Shown: piece by piece, positions 42,556 through 48,020 of the stretch
Position numbering within the stretch: the stretch's first letter is position 1
Layout: each line of letters starts with the position of its first letter
From: Naegleria gruberi
Taxonomy: Eukaryota
DNA length: 64,000 nucleotides
Strand: one strand, 5' to 3'
Assembly (NCBI GenBank): GCA_000004985.1
Contig: GG738861.1
Translations under genes and position numbers: made by a program
The notes under the pieces: model-generated
Told to the model about the DNA's origin: nothing
Database searches by the model: none
Seen by the model: the letters and a program-made list of their open reading frames with translations, nothing else

Positions 42556-45500
42556 ATGTCTCAAAATCCTCTTCTTTCTGCTCCGATGAAGAAGGAAAAT
42601 CAAAGTGATTTAAATTCGTTGAAGAGTTGTAATTTAATATTGTTGATTGGGAGAAGATGTTCGAATAAGACACTTTGTTATCAGAGGAATTTTTCAGCGA
42701 GCCATGAGAGGATTTCTCTCGAGGAGTGGAAGAAGGATAATTTATCTATTCATGCTACATTTAAAAAGATTATTAAAAAGTTGGAAAAGGTATAGTATTT
42801 GTGGCGGAATTCTATTAGAAAGTTTAAAGAAAAACGTAGTTATTGATGACACTAATTTGGTGAAAGAAACTAGGAAATCTCTAATTGACAAAATCAAACA
42901 AAGTATTCCTTCATGCACAGTTGGGGCACTCTACTTTAATTGTGAAAATCCAAAATTATTAGAGTTTCAATTTTACATGAATCAAACAATGAGCTTTTTT
43001 GTGGATAGATATTGCTCAAATTCATCTTCTATTCCTCTAACTCTTACTACTGATGGACCATTTCAAACATCAAACATTTTGGATGATGAGAAGAAATCAA
43101 TAGTACCAACTAAGGATGAAGGGTTTGATACAATTATTGAACAACCTGTAAAATTAACTATACTGAACAGGGATAGAATTGAATTTAATCATCAGGGACT
43201 AATTGTGGATGGGTTAATATTTGTTCATTCAATGCTCGTCGATTCGGATACAGATTCTGGACCTCTGTCCCATGTTCATTGGATTTTTACTCAATGGATG
43301 AAAATCAAACCTAACGGTAGAATAATTGTAATTCTTATCGAGAAAGACTTTGATAGGCTGTGTGATTCCCTCAAATCTAAGAAAACATTCGAACAATTTC
43401 AAACCTGGTTATCAAAGACATGTTGTAAATACTTTCCATTCCCAATTTATACTGTACAGATTAGTAACTCTAATTTCTCTCAACTCAAAAGAGATGAAAC
43501 ACTATTATTTTCTACCTTATTTTACTATCAATCACTGGCTGCTTCGGAATCACTAGTTCTGACCTCTCCATTTATATCACAAAGTTTAGCCCAACTCAGT
43601 GGTGCCAATACAACTGCCTCCACAAGACACAAGAAATTTTTCAAGCAAGAATGTAACCTAGATGATTCGTGTATTTACTTTAACAGCGATTTGTACTTTA
43701 AAATGTCTAAAATAGGACTTTTGCTGTTGGATTTTTCAAGTATTTCAGAAATATCAATAGCAGAAATTAACAGCATTCAAATGGAACAAAAATTTGCACT
43801 TTGTCAATTAGATTATAGAACTAATCAGCCATCCTATTTTAAACAAATTGAATTTGTTCAACTTAACGATTGGAAACCAGATGGTAAATCTATTTCAAAA
43901 TTTATAGGAAGATTTCCACTTGTTCAAGAATTAACTGTAAATCACACAAATAATTTCAGTATTGGTATTTTTAAGGATATTCAAAAGAAGGAAATCAAAT
44001 CAATACTCTTTGGCGTCATATTAGACACTCACCATATCAAACAATTCTCTTCTCAAAATGATTTCAACAACTTTGTACAATACTATGAACGAATTAATGA
44101 GTATAGTGTATCTAATCAAATGAACAACGCAATAGAAACCATGAATAATGAAAGAAAGAGATTTTCACCAAAGCAAACTTCTAGGTTATCAAAGGGTCTT
44201 GAGGTTGGAACTAATAGCCCAAGCTCTTCGAAATCTCAAGCTTCTGCTCCTGTAACAACGTCTGATGGAAAAACCTCAGATATTTATCAATTTCCGGTAA
44301 CAGATATGAGTATTTCTTCAATTTGTGACTACTTTGGATTACTGACATTCCAGAAAGGAAGGGACATGGAAACCCAAATTTATGATGTAATGGTAAAACT
44401 CATTCCAGAAAAACCAAATCATTTTAAATTATATGCCAAGTGTTCCAGCGCAACTGAGAAGGATACTTTTTACAGAGAGGAGATCCTTATGAAACAAGGT
44501 AAAATTGTTAAAGGAATTTGTACATGCCCTATTGGAAGCCAAGGAAAATGTAAACATGTTTGTGCCAGTATATTATCCTATGTGTCCATTATTTCTAACA
44601 GGAATATGGGAAATGAGCAGAAAATTGAGGAAAAGGAAAAGATTCTAAAATCTGGATCACTTGGCTCTCAATCAGAAAGTCAACTCAGTGAATCCAAAGT
44701 CATATCCCAAGATCCTCCACCAGTCTCATTTGCTGTAAAGCCAGAATCATCTGTAGAGCCATCTCAAGAACCAAAAAAGAAGAAAACTCTACCAAGTTGG
44801 ATGGGTGGCTCAAAAGAAAAGCCACAAAAGTCTTCCTCCACCAAGTCTGATTCAAAATCGGATCTCAAAAAACCAAAAACTAGTTTCTTTTTGTATTGTG
44901 ATGAGTATAGAGATGCAGTTAAGGAAGAGTTGGGAGGAAAGGTTGCTGCTTCTGAAGTGGCAAAAGAATTAGGAGCCAGGTGGAAGCAATTATCAGAAGA
45001 GGAAAAACAAGTTTATGTTGACAAGCACAAGGAATTAGCCAATGAATACGCCGAGAAGAAGAAGGAAATTAAATCCAAAAACAAAACAGATTCAGAGTCT
45101 ACGAGCACGAATGAAAAACCAAAAACAAACAAAAAGAAAGTGAAAAAGGAATCTGTGGATAATGATCCAATAGAAGAGAGTGATGAAGAGGAAGACGAAT
45201 CATTTGGAAATATATTCTTCTCAAAACAAAAACAAAAATCCTCTGAAGCCAAGCAAGAATCCAAGGATAGCTCCATAAGGCCAATTCCAGAAATGTCACC
45301 AGAGAATGTCACCAAATCAAAACCACAACCTGCAACAATTGTGAAGAAGGAACAACGCAGTGATGACGAAGATGAAGCATTTGGAAATATTTTCTTTTCA
45401 AAACCGTCATCTAAACCTTCAGTTGTCACAACCAGTGAAAAACCAGTTCTCAATTCTGTACCTAGTGTCATCATAAAGCAAGAACCTCAGAGCCCTAAAA

Positions 45501-46264
45501 AGAGAAAGCTCCCCAGTCCTGTTAAGCCAACAGTTCAGAAACAAAATGAAGAGGATGAATCCTCTGATGAGGATGTTGGCAGTATATTCTTTGCAACATC
45601 AAAGAAAAAGAAACCAAATAACTTGGAAGAAACTAATGTAAAACCTGTTAAACCTGTTTTGCAAAGTAATACAGTTGAAGAGAGAAAACCTATCCATGAA
45701 ACAAAACAAGCAATGGATGAAAGCGATGATGAAGATGCAAGCAGCATTTTCTTTTCCTCCTCTAAAAAGAAACCAAATGTCGAAACGAAGAAAGAACAGT
45801 TAATTACGCCCATTAGCTCAACAACAGAAAAAAAAGATTCAAATCTGGGTAAAGATCGAATGGAAGAAAGTGATGATGACGAAGAAGGTGGTATTGCAAA
45901 TATCTTCTTCTCCAAGCAAACAAAGAAGAAACCATCCTCTCCAATTATTACAAAACAATCAACTGTTTCGAATACTAGTGCACTTTCGAGTAATATTTCT
46001 TCAACAAGTAAGCCAACACTAGCTCCAAACAATAAGAAAGATATGGATGAAACAGATGACGATGAGGAAGATGTTAGTTTTGCCAATATTTTCTTCTCCA
46101 AATCTACAAAGAAACAACCTCCTCCAGCTTCATCATCTACAAACTCATCTACTTCATCAGTTCCAAAACCTTCATCTTCCTCTCCATCCAAAACTAATAA
46201 TCAGGAGAAGAACACAAAGAAAGTGACATCCCTTAAAGCTATGATGGCAGAATTTGATTTTTAA
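42556..46264 (+). CDS. Multidomain protein: PNK/AAA_33-like P-loop kinase domain, SWIM zinc finger, HMG box and six tandem acidic 'FGNIFFSK' FF motifs. Two exons: 42556..42789 and 42830..46264; the 40-nt intron is 42790..42829
   Basis: Exon 1: MSQNPLL...CNLILLIGRRCSNKT (atypical Walker A, G-x5-KT). GTATAG donor at 42790 and TTTAAAG acceptor; the phase-0 splice gives ...KNVVIDDTNLVKETRKSLIDKI, a PNK-family DxTN signature. SWIM: CTCPIGSQGKCKHVCASIL (CxCxnCxH). HMG box: KKPKTSFFLYCDEYRDAVKEELGGKVAASEVAKELGARWKQLSEEEKQVYVDKHKELANEYAEKKKE. Six repeats of [D/E-rich]-(F/A)GNIFFSK-[K-rich] between about 45170 and 46125. Confidence 0.75.
45170..46125 (+). repeat. Six-copy intragenic tandem repeat, about 160-200 nt period, each with an acidic tract followed by xGNIFF(S/A)K and a lysine-rich tract
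   Basis: SDEEEDESFGNIFFSKQKQK; SDDEDEAFGNIFFSKPSSK; SSDEDVGSIFFATSKKKK; SDDEDASSIFFSSSKKK; SDDDEEGGIANIFFSKQTKKK; TDDDEEDVSFANIFFSKSTKK. The cores are also similar at the nucleotide level (tttggaaatat[at]ttctt[ct]tcaaaa). Confidence 0.85.
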
Positions 46265-46365: not shown

Positions 46366-47217
46366 ATGATTGGTTGTAAGATTAATGATCCGAGTTTGAT
46401 TTCCAAAGTAATAGAATTGATGAGTCACTTTACAGATTTGGTCAACTTTGAAGTATCCTCCTCAAGTCTATTCATTCATGCTGTGGATAATTATAAGGTT
46501 GTTCTCTTTGAATTTAGATTATTGGAAAATCAAGCCTTCGTATTTGTTAATCAGGATCAAACTAGAAGAATTAAACTACCCAACTTTGAGAAGCACTATG
46601 GAATTAATTTGAAAATATTTTCCCAAGTAACAAAAGGCTTGAAATCCGATGATAGTTTGTATATTCAATTTCCATCCAATGACGAAGCCTCAGACATACT
46701 ACTCCACATCAAGAAGAAGAATCCACTCAGAAAGTTTACCTATCAACTCTCACAATTCGAAATATGTGATAATGAAAGTTATGAAATTAATGATTTTGAC
46801 CAACAAGCAAGAGTGGAAATATTAATGAATACTCAAAACTTTTCTCAAATGATTCAAGACTTGCACCACTTGAATGGTAATCGATTCAGATTAGAAGTAG
46901 AGAAGAGGGATGATTTTGTACTAACTCTCAAAACTTGGAATGAATTCATCAAGGCAAGTATTGATATTTCCAATGGTGAAGAAAATGTTTCCATTAGTAT
47001 AAGTGAGAGGGAAGAAGAATTTGTTAATATTGGTAATGAATATCCATTCAAAATACTATCAGTTATTTCTCGTGCAAGTAAGATTTCAGATCAGGTATTG
47101 TTTCAAGTTTGTGAGAATGGTCCTCTTGGAATATTATATGGATTAGAGGGAGGTAGTTTCCAATTCTTTGTGGCTCCATTCATTCCAAATGATGATTCCG
47201 AAGATGTTGATGATTAA
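46366..47217 (+). CDS. Highly divergent PCNA-like sliding-clamp paralog (283 aa)
   Basis: Collinear with PCNA end to end but with low identity: [43 protein letters not shown] ~ [69 protein letters not shown] ~ [25 protein letters not shown]; C-terminus [21 protein letters not shown] ~ GHLKYYLAPKIEDEEGS. ATG at 46366, about 100 nt downstream of the HMG/SWIM gene on the same strand. Confidence 0.8.
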   Translation: [283 protein letters not shown]

Positions 47218-47309: not shown

Positions 47310-48020
47310 TCAGTATTGATCTACCTCAGTATCAGGAAGGACTGTATAAACAACTTCTCCAGATTGGTCTTTGGTGAAAGTAATAAACTCTAGTTTTTCA
47401 CTTGATAAACTAGTACTATCCATTGTCTTTGTCATGACCTTGACAGCCAACTTTTTAGCAGCACCAATCTTCAAATCCTCCTTCCATTCTTGTTTCAAGA
47501 TTGATTGAGCAGCTTGATTATTAGCTCCGATTGCTGTAGCTTTCCATCCACCATAATTTCCTGAAGGATCAGAATGATACAATTGATATCCATATTGTTT
47601 ATCCCAACCAGCATACAAGAAACTGACGCCAAATGGTCTCATACCACCAAATTGTGTGTAACTTTGCTTTGAATCACAGAGAGTTTTTACAAGTTGTTCT
47701 ACTGGTATTGGTTCTTGATACATGAATTGATAACGTTGAGCGTGGAGACGAGCAGAGTTAATCAAAATGTTGGCATCAGCTGTAATACCAGCAACAGCAC
47801 ATCCAATATGTTTATCTAATTTGTACATCTTTTCTGTTTTCTTTTCATTATCGAGAAGCTTGGAAGTAATTTTCTTTTCAGCAGCTAATACAATACCATC
47901 GGTGGCAATAATACCGAGAGCAGCACCAGCATGGCTGATAGCTTCCATAGCATATTCGACTTGATACAATCGTCCTTCAGGTGAAAATGTTGTAGTTCTA
48001 TTGTCGTATCTTCTACTCAT
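47310..48020 (-). CDS. PSMA4: 20S proteasome alpha subunit type-4 (alpha3 / PSMA4 / Pre9 orthologue)
   Basis: [50 protein letters not shown] is near-identical to human PSMA4 [50 protein letters not shown]. Collinear throughout, including [14 protein letters not shown]. Confidence 0.95.

What the first reader, a model, noticed from the sequence alone, without database searches (positions are those of the whole stretch)
45170..46125. Six-fold acidic-FGNIFFSK-basic tandem repeat, similar at the nucleotide level
The repeats recur with a period of about 55-65 aa. Their cores are similar at the nucleotide level (tttggaaatat[a/t]ttctt[c/t]tcaaaa), which implies recent intragenic duplication or concerted evolution. 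Each unit has a D/E/S-rich run that may be a CK2-type phospho-acidic patch, then an invariant I-F-F, then K-rich residues. This resembles multivalent short linear motifs. Candidates are RIR-type, or FFAT-like with two Phe in an acidic tract.
Basis: seen in the sequence. Interest (0 to 1): 0.6.

Follow-up and report, generated by a model that had tools for sequence, protein, structure and literature searches.

The report
Six-copy IFF docking-motif array
The disordered tail of an uncharacterised Naegleria gruberi DNA-binding protein carries six copies of a short acidic–IFF–basic peptide motif that is conserved in related amoebae while everything between the copies has diverged, so it is most likely a multivalent protein-docking site for a partner that is still unknown.

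Summary
The window is Naegleria gruberi. ORF 42647..46264 encodes six acidic–Φxx-IFF–basic units, 52–65 aa apart, in a 394-aa disordered tail. Shuffles of that tail never gave more than two IFF.

The nucleotide similarity needs no recent duplication. Codons at identical residues match 95 times against 85.5 expected from codon usage, and TRF finds no long-period repeat.

The motif is under selection. N. lovaniensis keeps four copies, which align with gruberi units 2, 4, 5 and 6, while the spacers have diverged. One to four copies of Φ-x-[DNS]-[ILV]-F-F occur in relatives from Willaertia, Acrasis and unnamed metagenomes. They also occur in a paralogue line that carries an RPA70-like OB fold instead of the HMG box.

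The host protein has a P-loop, an HAD/PNKP-like fold, a SWIM finger, an APLF/MRI-type Ku-binding-like motif (LPxWM), an HMG box, the tail, and a conserved C-terminal motif.

Best reading: a multivalent fold-on-binding docking motif in a candidate DNA-repair scaffold, partner unknown.

It resembles RIR, PIP-like and Artemis–ligase IV FF motifs, but fails the defining features of RIR, PIP box and FFAT. I rate it a new variant of a known kind, of moderate interest.

The parts
42556..42789 (+). Probable first exon, missing from the NCBI model. It starts at an ATG and encodes a degenerate P-loop (LILLIGRRCSNKTL).
   Evidence: The frame-1 ORF aligns residue for residue with the N-terminus of the N. 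lovaniensis orthologue P0002. Paralogues carry a canonical GPPxSGK[ST] at this position.
42790..42829 (+). Inferred 40-nt intron (gtatag...tttaaag) joining exon 1 to the long ORF.
   Evidence: Read from the sequence. It is the only GT..AG choice that restores the frame, and it gives KKLEK|KNVVIDD, matching KKLEKQCKIVIDD in N. lovaniensis. This is an inference; no transcript data were available.
42830..46264 (+). Main coding exon of the gene. P0001, 'predicted protein [Naegleria gruberi]', covers 42990..46264.
43187..43564 (+). HAD-phosphatase-like alpha/beta domain. Motif I is degenerate: IVDGL, with the second Asp absent.
44519..44557 (+). SWIM zinc-finger core, CTCPIGSQGKCKH.
44774..44803 (+). 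KKKKTLPSWM: a basic patch followed by [LI]-P-x-W-M, resembling the APLF/MRI-type Ku80-binding motif (A-KBM).
   Evidence: Conserved at the same place in N. lovaniensis, the third Naegleria, P0005, P0062 and P0077. The minimal KBM is R-x-x-P-x-W. Met follows Trp in APLF and in most MRI sequences.
44867..45067 (+). HMG box.
   Evidence: Pfam PF00505, E 2.3e-13. It is the only part of the full-length AF2 model with pLDDT near 70.
45161..45253 (+). Unit 1: NDPIEESDEEEDESFGNIFFSKQKQKSSEAK.
   Evidence: It has no counterpart in N. lovaniensis.
45338..45430 (+). Unit 2: IVKKEQRSDDEDEAFGNIFFSKPSSKPSVVT.
   Evidence: It aligns with N. lovaniensis ACSNIFFSKSG and with the third species' ASSNIFASKS.
45533..45625 (+). 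Unit 3: VQKQNEEDESSDEDVGSIFFATSKKKKPNNL.
   Evidence: It has no counterpart in N. lovaniensis.
45695..45787 (+). Unit 4: HETKQAMDESDDEDASSIFFSSSKKKPNVET.
   Evidence: It aligns with N. lovaniensis ...SIMDVFFSKKKRK.
45851..45943 (+). Unit 5: KDRMEESDDDEEGGIANIFFSKQTKKKPSSP.
   Evidence: It aligns with N. lovaniensis TNVFFSKS.
46037..46129 (+). Unit 6: KDMDETDDDEEDVSFANIFFSKSTKKQPPPA.
   Evidence: It aligns with N. lovaniensis FQQIFFSKSTKT.
46220..46261 (+). Conserved extreme C-terminal motif KVTSLKAMMAEFDF. The family consensus is K-[KR]-[IV]-S-L-[KR]-x-[LM]-[LIM].
   Evidence: It is the fourth conserved island of the tail. It is present at the C-terminus of every full-length family member, both HMG and OB types.

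Best explanation
The six units are copies of a short linear docking motif. Its core is Φ-x-[DNS]-[ILV]-F-F. In Naegleria the core is framed by an acidic run upstream and a Lys-rich patch downstream. The copies sit in the intrinsically disordered C-terminal tail of a nuclear DNA-binding scaffold protein.

Inferred mechanism: each copy is disordered when free. On binding it folds into a short amphipathic turn or helix, in which the residues at -4, -1 and 0 (i, i+3, i+4) and the second Phe insert into a hydrophobic pocket of a partner protein. The flanking charges add electrostatic steering. Six copies would give either avidity for an oligomeric or DNA-bound partner, or recruitment of several partner molecules.

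The host protein has a PNK-like P-loop, an HAD-like fold, a SWIM finger, a Ku-binding-like LPxWM motif and an HMG box. Its paralogues carry an RPA70 DBD-A-like OB fold instead of the HMG box. This suggests the partner belongs to DNA double-strand-break repair or replication-stress machinery.

What is shown: the existence, non-randomness, disorder context and purifying selection of the motif, and the domain context. What is inferred: binding itself, the folding mode and the pathway.
For: Non-random array: 6 IFF against at most 2 in 200,000 shuffles, and every Phe of the tail lies in a unit or in the C-terminal motif.

Disorder: the tail is 18% hydrophobic, 34% charged and 43% S/T/P/N/Q. AF2 predicts coil at pLDDT 25-35.

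Selection on the peptide rather than on the DNA: codon identity is 95 against 85.5 expected. In gruberi versus lovaniensis the tail is 28% identical overall. The only islands with at least 5 of 7 identical residues are three motif units and the C-terminal motif.

N. lovaniensis has 4 units, positionally matching gruberi units 2, 4, 5 and 6.

Deeper conservation: FEDIFF, FESIFFG (three times), LEDIFFG, FADIFFA, LENIFFS, FENIFFK, EDLFFP and SDLFFN occur in the tails of family members. These include the N. gruberi paralogue, Willaertia magna, Acrasis kona and unnamed metagenome proteins.

Specificity control: none of the HMG-box-only hits among the 150 best matches carries such an array, and there is no other instance in the 64-kb window.

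Context: HMG box; HAD/PNKP-like fold; RPA70 DBD-A-like OB fold in the paralogues; LPxWM fits the A-KBM. N. gruberi is reported to have Ku, DNA-PKcs, XLF and PAXX, and a PNKP-like protein fused to an MRI-type KBM is reported in sea urchin.

Known FF-type helical motifs work this way: RIR, PIP-like motifs and Artemis W489/F492/F493 on ligase IV.
Against: No binding partner has been identified and no experiment exists.

AF2 shows no helical propensity for the units.

The motif fails the defining features of every named FF-motif class tested.

The flanks are not conserved across the family. The long acidic run and the Lys patch are prominent in Naegleria but weak in P0005. The charge framing may therefore be lineage-specific, or may serve another purpose such as histone or DNA contacts.

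Confidence: 0.5

Rival explanations
1. Histone or chromatin-binding tail. Each acidic run with aromatic anchors would bind H2A-H2B or H3-H4, as in the acidic domain of APLF or the C-terminal tails of FACT. The Lys patches would contact DNA. The protein would then be an HMG-box chromatin chaperone.
For: The layout alternates acidic, aromatic and basic stretches, with net charge -3 to -9 upstream and +2 to +4 downstream. The protein has an HMG box and a KBM-like motif followed by an acidic tail, the same order as in APLF (own knowledge of APLF; KBM). Multivalency is typical of histone-binding disordered regions (own knowledge).
Against: Conservation is concentrated on the exact [ILV]-F-F triplet rather than on acidity. 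P0005 and the OB paralogues keep FE[DS]IFF with little acidic run. Histone-binding acidic tails usually tolerate much more sequence drift (own knowledge).
Confidence: 0.15
2. REV1-interacting regions (RIR). Each FF would dock into the REV1 C-terminal domain, and the following residues would form a helix.
For: FF is followed by helix-compatible, Lys-rich residues in most units. N. gruberi has Y-family polymerases such as POLI. RIR and PIP-like motifs are cross-reactive.
Against: The consensus nFFhhhh needs an N-capping residue directly before FF. Here that residue is I/V in 10 of 10 Naegleria units and I/L elsewhere in the family. Unit 2 has Pro at h3. The strongly conserved positions -1, -2 and -4 are not part of the RIR definition. 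Whether Naegleria has a REV1 C-terminal domain was not established.
Confidence: 0.07
3. A non-canonical PIP-like motif that binds PCNA or another sliding clamp (9-1-1). Six copies could load several trimeric clamps.
For: The double aromatic followed by basic residues is typical of PIP-like motifs. The protein has a DNA-metabolism context. A Rad1/PCNA-like gene lies immediately downstream at 46366..47217.
Against: The PIP consensus Q-x-x-[ILMV]-x-x-[FY]-[FY] fails. Position 4 is G, G, G, S, A, A, and position 1 is never Q. The hydrophobic residue sits at position 3, one residue out of register. The Rad1-like neighbour is not syntenic in N. lovaniensis.
Confidence: 0.08
4. Artemis-type DNA ligase IV-binding helix, or another NHEJ-factor docking site (Ku70, XRCC4, XLF or PAXX). 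Together with the LPxWM motif it would make the protein an APLF/MRI-like NHEJ adaptor.
For: Artemis 485-495 binds ligase IV through W489, F492 and F493 on one helical face. That is the same Φ-x-x-Φ-Φ logic. An A-KBM-like motif is conserved 130 residues upstream. The NHEJ core is present in N. gruberi. The fold is PNKP-like.
Against: The conserved Trp that defines the Artemis motif is absent; the position holds F/V/A/I/C/L. The register differs by one residue. The OB paralogues keep the FF motif but lack LPxWM, so the two motifs are not obligatorily coupled.
Confidence: 0.12
5. Intramolecular regulation. The acidic/IFF units would fold back onto the HMG box, as the acidic tail does in HMGB1, and gate DNA binding.
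For: An HMG box lies next to an acidic tail. The precedent is HMGB1 (own knowledge).
Against: The motif is equally conserved in paralogues that have an OB fold and no HMG box. AF2 shows no contact or confidence gain between the tail and the HMG box.
Confidence: 0.05
6. Neutral low-complexity repeat expansion or assembly artefact with no function.
For: Copy number varies (6 against 4, and 1-4 in relatives). One copy in a third Naegleria reads IFA.
Against: The motif islands are conserved while the spacers diverge. The motif is kept across genera and paralogues. Synonymous sites are randomised, so the copies are old and maintained. Three independent assemblies agree.
Confidence: 0.03

Closest known systems
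REV1-interacting region (RIR; ELM LIG_REV1ctd_RIR_1)
   Same: A short motif in a disordered region, centred on an invariant FF. It is followed by helix-compatible, often basic residues and occurs in DNA-damage-tolerance proteins.
   Different: The residue before FF is I/V/L, not an N-cap residue. Positions -4 and -2 are conserved here but are not part of the RIR definition. One unit has Pro in the helical segment. There are six copies per protein, against one or two in polymerases. A REV1 partner has not been demonstrated in Naegleria.
PIP box and the wider PIP-like motif group (PCNA / MLH1 / REV1 hubs)
   Same: A hydrophobic helix with a double aromatic, with basic residues downstream, in a genome-maintenance context.
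   Different: There is no Gln at position 1. Position 4 holds a small or polar residue instead of I/L/M/V. The upstream hydrophobic residue is one residue out of register.
Artemis 485-495 DNA ligase IV-binding helix
   Same: Three hydrophobic residues at i, i+3 and i+4, including an FF pair, are used to complete a helical bundle on the partner, in an NHEJ context.
   Different: The defining Trp is absent, the register is shifted by one, and the motif is repeated six times.
APLF and MRI/CYREN (disordered NHEJ adaptors with Ku-binding motifs)
   Same: A basic patch followed by [LI]-P-x-W-M upstream, a second conserved motif at the extreme C-terminus, and long disordered regions. APLF also ends in an acidic tail (APLF architecture from own knowledge). 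A PNKP-like protein fused to a KBM is reported in sea urchin.
   Different: No FHA or PBZ domains. The host has P-loop, HAD-like, SWIM and HMG modules. Ku binding is untested. The IFF array has no counterpart in APLF or MRI.
FFAT motif (VAP/MSP-binding, EFFDAxE in an acidic tract)
   Same: FF preceded by an acidic tract.
   Different: The core positions 1, 4, 5 and 7 do not match (I, S, K and K/S/T instead of E, D, A and E). The downstream flank is basic. The host is a nuclear DNA-binding protein.

Membership tests
RIR (REV1-interacting region) | Two adjacent Phe | tested here: met
   FF is invariant in 6 of 6 gruberi units and 4 of 4 lovaniensis units.
RIR (REV1-interacting region) | An N-capping residue (S/T/D/N/G/P) immediately before FF (nFFhhhh) | tested here: not met
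   The consensus is taken from PMC11276120. Position -1 is I (8) or V (2) in the ten Naegleria units, and I or L in other family members.
RIR (REV1-interacting region) | Four helix-forming residues after FF | tested here: inconclusive
   Five of six gruberi units have no Pro in +1..+4. Unit 2 is FFSKPS. AF2 predicts coil.
RIR (REV1-interacting region) | The organism has a REV1 C-terminal domain as receptor | not tested
The literature search returned only a statement about POLI in N. gruberi.
PIP box | Q1-x-x-[ILMV]4-x-x-[FY]7-[FY]8 | tested here: not met
   Consensus. With FF at positions 7 and 8, position 4 is G, G, G, S, A, A and position 1 is E, D, D, D, G, V.
FFAT | Core E-[FY]-[FY]-D-[AC]-x-[ESTD] within an acidic tract (consensus from own knowledge; class named) | tested here: not met
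   The acidic tract and FF are present. However, position 1 is I, position 4 is S/A, position 5 is K/T/S and position 7 is K/S/T, and the downstream flank is net basic (+2 to +4).
Artemis-type ligase IV-binding motif | A conserved Trp three residues before FF, docking into the VPF pocket of ligase IV | tested here: not met
   Feature taken. Position -3 is G/S/A/Q and position -4 is F/V/A/I/C/L. Trp never occurs.
DNA-level tandem repeat under concerted evolution | Unit-length DNA periodicity, with synonymous-site identity above the codon-usage expectation | tested here: not met
   TRF finds no long-period array. Same-codon count is 95 against 85.5 expected over 161 comparisons.
Short linear motif (SLiM) array in a disordered region | A short conserved island in a disordered, otherwise fast-evolving region, conserved in orthologues | tested here: met
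SLiM array | A demonstrated binding partner | not testable with these tools
   No complex prediction or experiment was available.
APLF-type Ku-binding motif (applies to KKKKTLPSWM, not to the repeat) | A basic patch, then a conserved Pro and Trp (minimal R-x-x-P-x-W), with Met after Trp in high-affinity versions | tested here: met
   K-T-L-P-S-W-M is preceded by KKKK. It is conserved as [KR]-x-[LI]-P-x-W-M in six HMG-type relatives. Features taken. K replaces R in Naegleria. The minimal pattern is unspecific: more than 600 human proteins match it.
APLF-type Ku-binding motif | [quoted passage not shown] | not testable with these tools
   Ku is reported to be present in N. gruberi. No binding test was possible.
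PNK-like kinase-phosphatase (host protein) | A Walker A P-loop followed by an HAD (DxDxT) phosphatase fold | tested here: inconclusive

The most novel reading that the evidence does not exclude
The family would be a heterolobosean, PNKP-derived pseudo-enzyme scaffold that acts as an APLF/MRI-like adaptor in end joining. It would be anchored to Ku through LPxWM and to DNA through the HMG box or the OB fold. Φ-x-[DN]-I-F-F would then be a previously undescribed class of docking motif, whose six-fold array concentrates several copies of one repair factor at a break.
Probability: 0.2. Interest if true: 0.6.

Novelty: new variant of a known kind. Interest (0 to 1): 0.4.

Why it matters
FF-centred docking motifs (PIP, RIR, MIP, Artemis-LigIV) organise eukaryotic genome maintenance, but they are defined almost entirely from animals and fungi.

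A conserved FF motif with a different register, amplified to six copies, would extend that motif repertoire to a deep-branching eukaryotic lineage. It sits in a protein that combines PNK-like, SWIM, Ku-binding-like and HMG or OB modules. It would also give a concrete handle for finding how Naegleria, including the pathogen N. fowleri, assembles its repair complexes: peptide pull-downs with FF>AA controls.

If the partner turns out to be a histone, or nothing specific, this is simply one more lineage-specific disordered tail.

Tried and rejected
- **Full-length word-indexed protein search.** It was swamped by low-complexity words and returned only the protein itself.
- **Word-indexed search with a motif profile.** A 40-column doubled profile gave 36 candidates, none scoring, not even the source protein.
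- **Local HMM tests.** A gruberi-only unit profile barely detects the lovaniensis array (15 bits). A database-wide motif-only search would therefore have had little power.
- **Full-text search for 'IFFSK'.** It returned only German words. The search 'Naegleria + polynucleotide kinase + SWIM' returned swimming-pool papers. No literature on this family was found.
- **First representative-library job.** It failed because the profile had more than 1,200 positions. It was re-run after trimming.
- **Sequence-profile searches of the N-terminal part against PDB and Pfam.** They found nothing significant: ERCC4 at E 0.019 and adenylate kinase at E about 1.
- **AF2 of the full-length protein with 3 sequences.** The model was unusable outside the HMG box.
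- **Foldseek against PDB with the second model.** It gave no significant hit; weak FEN/PIN-like matches were discarded.
- **Readings considered and rejected for the repeat:**
  - LC3-interacting region: [WFY]-x-x-[LIV] is matched by only 3 of 6 units.
  - SUMO-interacting motif: the core is not of the V/I-x-V/I-V/I type.
  - PIP degron: there is no TD and the +4 basic residue is inconsistent.
  - MDC1-like SDT or PNKP-FHA phospho-sites: the Ser/Thr is not conserved outside N. gruberi.
  - Functional linkage to the neighbouring Rad1-like gene: the neighbour is not syntenic in N. lovaniensis.
Full report
**Source and gene.** The window is Naegleria gruberi. The 1205-codon ORF at 42647..46264 (+) is 100% identical to a 1091-aa 'predicted protein [Naegleria gruberi]', P0001. 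G+C is about 34% throughout the window. The neighbouring genes are a Rad1/PCNA-like clamp subunit (46366..47217, +) and a proteasome alpha subunit (47310..48020, -).

**The observation.** Reading the sequence and indexing every FF in the ORF gives six units. Their first Phe lies at residues 857, 916, 981, 1035, 1087 and 1149, so the spacing is 59, 65, 54, 52 and 62 aa. Each unit has three parts:
- 18 residues upstream of the FF that are net acidic (net charge -3 to -9) and contain at least one S/T-x-x-D/E site
- an invariant I-F-F
- 12 residues downstream that are net basic (+2 to +4)

The tail after the HMG box is 394 aa long. It is 18% hydrophobic, 34% charged and 43% S/T/P/N/Q. AF2 models it as coil at pLDDT 25-35. 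All 17 Phe of the tail are either in the six units (15) or in the last five residues, EFDF (2). In 200,000 shuffles of the tail, IFF never appeared more than twice, against six observed.

**Nucleotide similarity.** The repeat finder recovers the units as islands of 34-82 nt at 60-79% identity. Tandem Repeats Finder sees no array with a period near 160-195 nt. I compared codons at positions where two units share the same amino acid. The codon is the same in 95 of 161 comparisons, against 85.5 expected from the codon usage of 20 long ORFs in the window. Ile is ATA, ATT or ATC; Phe is TTC or TTT; Ser is TCA or TCC; Lys is AAA or AAG. The DNA similarity is thus what peptide conservation plus codon bias produces. 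There is no sign of recent duplication or gene conversion.

The units are still probably old duplicates. They share an extended [MI]-[DE]-E-[ST]-D-[DE]-[DE] stretch upstream of the motif. Units 1/2 and 3/4 are each other's closest relatives.

**Conservation in orthologues.** The N. lovaniensis orthologue is split into two gene models: P0002 (N-terminal part) and P0004 (SWIM, HMG box and tail). Its tail has four units: SNIFFSK, MDVFFSK, TNVFFSK and QQIFFSK. These align with gruberi units 2, 4, 5 and 6. Units 1 and 3 have no counterpart.

Over the aligned tail the two species are 28% identical. The only islands with at least 5 of 7 identical residues are three of the units and the extreme C-terminal motif. 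A third Naegleria (Logan run SRR29240419) has SSNIFASK at the position of unit 2, after which the contig ends.

**A wider family.** An exhaustive HMMER search of 1.84 billion representative proteins with a full-length profile gave mostly HMG-box proteins. It also gave nine genuine relatives. Their sequences and names include:
- an N. gruberi paralogue (XP_002678062, annotated 'replication factor-a protein')
- Willaertia magna KAL9656276
- Acrasis kona KAL0488844
- several unnamed metagenome or Logan proteins

All share the following layout:
- an N-terminal P-loop, which is canonical (GPPxSGK[ST]) in the paralogues and degenerate in the HMG-type proteins
- a conserved middle region
- a SWIM finger, CTCP.G..G.CKH
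- either [KR]-x-[LI]-P-x-W-M plus an HMG box (P0062 has the LPAWM motif, but no HMG box was detected in it), or an OB fold
- a disordered tail
- a conserved C-terminal K-[KR]-[IV]-S-L-[KR]-x-[LM]-[LIM] motif

The OB fold is homologous to RPA70 DBD-A (PDB 4gnx_C, E 1.4e-16; 1jmc, E 1.7e-15).

The tails carry one to four copies of the same core: NYEDIFFG and three copies of DFESIFFG (P0005); LMDIFFP, DFADIFFA, LENIFFS and LEDIFFG (P0062); FENIFFK and ADIFLS (P0077); TFEDIFFT (N. gruberi paralogue); SFEDIFFT and IQGIFFD (Willaertia); LSDLFFN (Acrasis); VEDLFFP (P0017). One OB-type member, P0019, has no clear copy, only a degenerate NVFK.

The family core is therefore Φ-x-[DNS]-[ILV]-F-F. The long acidic run and the Lys patch are strongest in Naegleria. 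As a control, none of the HMG-only hits in the top 150 has such an array. The motif occurs nowhere else in the window.

**What the host protein is.** Pfam recognises only the HMG box. Sequence profiles of the N-terminal part find nothing significant in PDB or Pfam. With a 10-sequence family alignment, AF2 gives a medium-confidence model (mean pLDDT 50.6; residues about 120-245 at 60-80). Foldseek finds nothing significant.

Upstream of the annotated start, a frame-1 ORF from ATG 42556 plus a 40-nt GT..AG intron (42790-42829) restores an N-terminus. This N-terminus aligns with the N. lovaniensis protein.

The KKKKTLPSWM segment fits the minimal Ku-binding motif R-x-x-P-x-W. It also fits the Trp-Met pair that characterises APLF and most MRI sequences. 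N. gruberi is reported to have Ku, DNA-PKcs, XLF and PAXX, and a PNKP-like protein fused to an MRI-type KBM is reported in sea urchin. These points make a role in DNA repair plausible. They do not prove it.

**Mechanism.** The best-supported reading is a multivalent docking motif. In the known FF-type motifs a disordered peptide folds on binding and buries the aromatic pair, together with a hydrophobic residue one helical turn away. Examples are RIR on the REV1 C-terminal domain (nFFhhhh), PIP-like motifs on PCNA and Artemis W489/F492/F493 on ligase IV. Here the conserved positions -4, -1, 0 and +1 give the same Φ-x-x-Φ-Φ(-Φ) pattern. This part is inference: no partner was identified, and AF2 shows no helical propensity.

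**Comparison with known classes.**
- RIR: FF is met. The N-cap before FF is not met in any of 10 Naegleria units. The helix-former criterion is broken by Pro in unit 2.
- PIP box: not met. Position 4 is G/S/A and there is no Gln at position 1.
- FFAT: not met. The core positions 1, 4, 5 and 7 do not match and the downstream flank is basic.
- Artemis type: not met, because there is no Trp.

Its specific RIR and FFAT assignments do not, and neither does 'recent duplication or concerted evolution'.

**Rivals.** A histone-binding acidic/aromatic tail of the APLF or FACT type remains possible. It explains the charge pattern better than it explains the strict IFF conservation. Autoinhibition of the HMG box is unlikely, because the OB-type paralogues keep the motif. 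A neutral repeat or an assembly artefact is excluded by the conservation pattern and by three independent assemblies.

**Verdict.** This is a real, selected, six-fold short-motif array in an uncharacterised heterolobosean protein family with DNA-repair-like architecture. It works like an FF-type docking motif but is not a member of any defined class. I rate it a new variant of a known kind. Interest is moderate (0.4). It would be higher if the partner proves to be a repair factor and the LPxWM motif binds Ku.

Noticed in passing
window 42556-42829: The public gene model (P0001) starts at Met 42990. It appears to miss a first exon (ATG 42556, degenerate P-loop LILLIGRRCSNKTL) and about 50 further codons of the long ORF. 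A 40-nt GT..AG intron (42790-42829) would join the two. The reconstructed N-terminus aligns with the N. lovaniensis orthologue.
   Followed up: partly
window 44774-44803: KKKKTLPSWM is a basic patch followed by L-P-x-W-M. It resembles the APLF/MRI-type Ku80-binding motif. It is conserved at the same position, between the SWIM finger and the HMG box, in all HMG-type relatives, and is absent from the OB-type paralogues.
   Followed up: partly
window 46220-46261: The extreme C-terminus, KVTSLKAMMAEFDF, is a second conserved motif. Its family consensus is K-[KR]-[IV]-S-L-[KR]-x-[LM]-[LIM], and it is found at the C-terminus of every full-length family member. It contains a basophilic-kinase-like [KR][KR]xS site. 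Its function is unknown.
   Followed up: partly
P0022 (N. gruberi XP_002678062), P0038 (Willaertia), P0032 (Acrasis), P0019 and P0017; not in the window: A paralogous line has the same P-loop, HAD-like and SWIM front end, but an RPA70 DBD-A-like OB fold where this gene has LPxWM plus the HMG box. A DNA-binding module has been swapped within one family. The public annotation as 'replication factor A' rests on the OB fold alone.
   Followed up: partly
P0019, P0022, P0038, P0032 and P0017 tails (alignment A7, columns ~1390-1420): The OB-type paralogues carry classic SUMO-interacting-motif-like stretches: VIDLESDSDEE, VLDYVVLSDNEEVEILDF, VMEVVELSDGEGEIEVLE and IIDDDDDDEVIMMD. The HMG-type proteins lack them.
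   Followed up: no
window 45140-45151, 45341-45352 and 45473-45484: There are three ψ-K-x-E sumoylation-consensus sites in the tail (VKKE, VKKE, IKQE). The second and third are also present in N. lovaniensis (VKKE, IKSE), and the second is present in the third Naegleria.
   Followed up: no
window 43187-43564: The HAD-like domain lacks the second Asp of motif I (IVDGL here; DAH, DSS, DFS or DAC in relatives). The Walker A motif is degenerate in HMG-type members but canonical in OB-type members. This suggests that the HMG-type line is a pseudo-enzyme.
   Followed up: partly
window 46366-47217 (+): A Rad1/PCNA-like sliding-clamp subunit gene (Pfam Rad1 1.3e-07, PCNA_N 2.9e-07) lies 100 bp downstream of the repeat gene. 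The adjacency is not conserved in N. lovaniensis.
   Followed up: partly
L001 6040-10064 (N. lovaniensis PYSW02000005.1): The N. lovaniensis orthologue is annotated as two separate genes (C9374_012405 and C9374_012406). These correspond to one continuous ORF in N. gruberi. The likely cause is a mis-called gene boundary at an intron near FICDYFGL.
   Followed up: no
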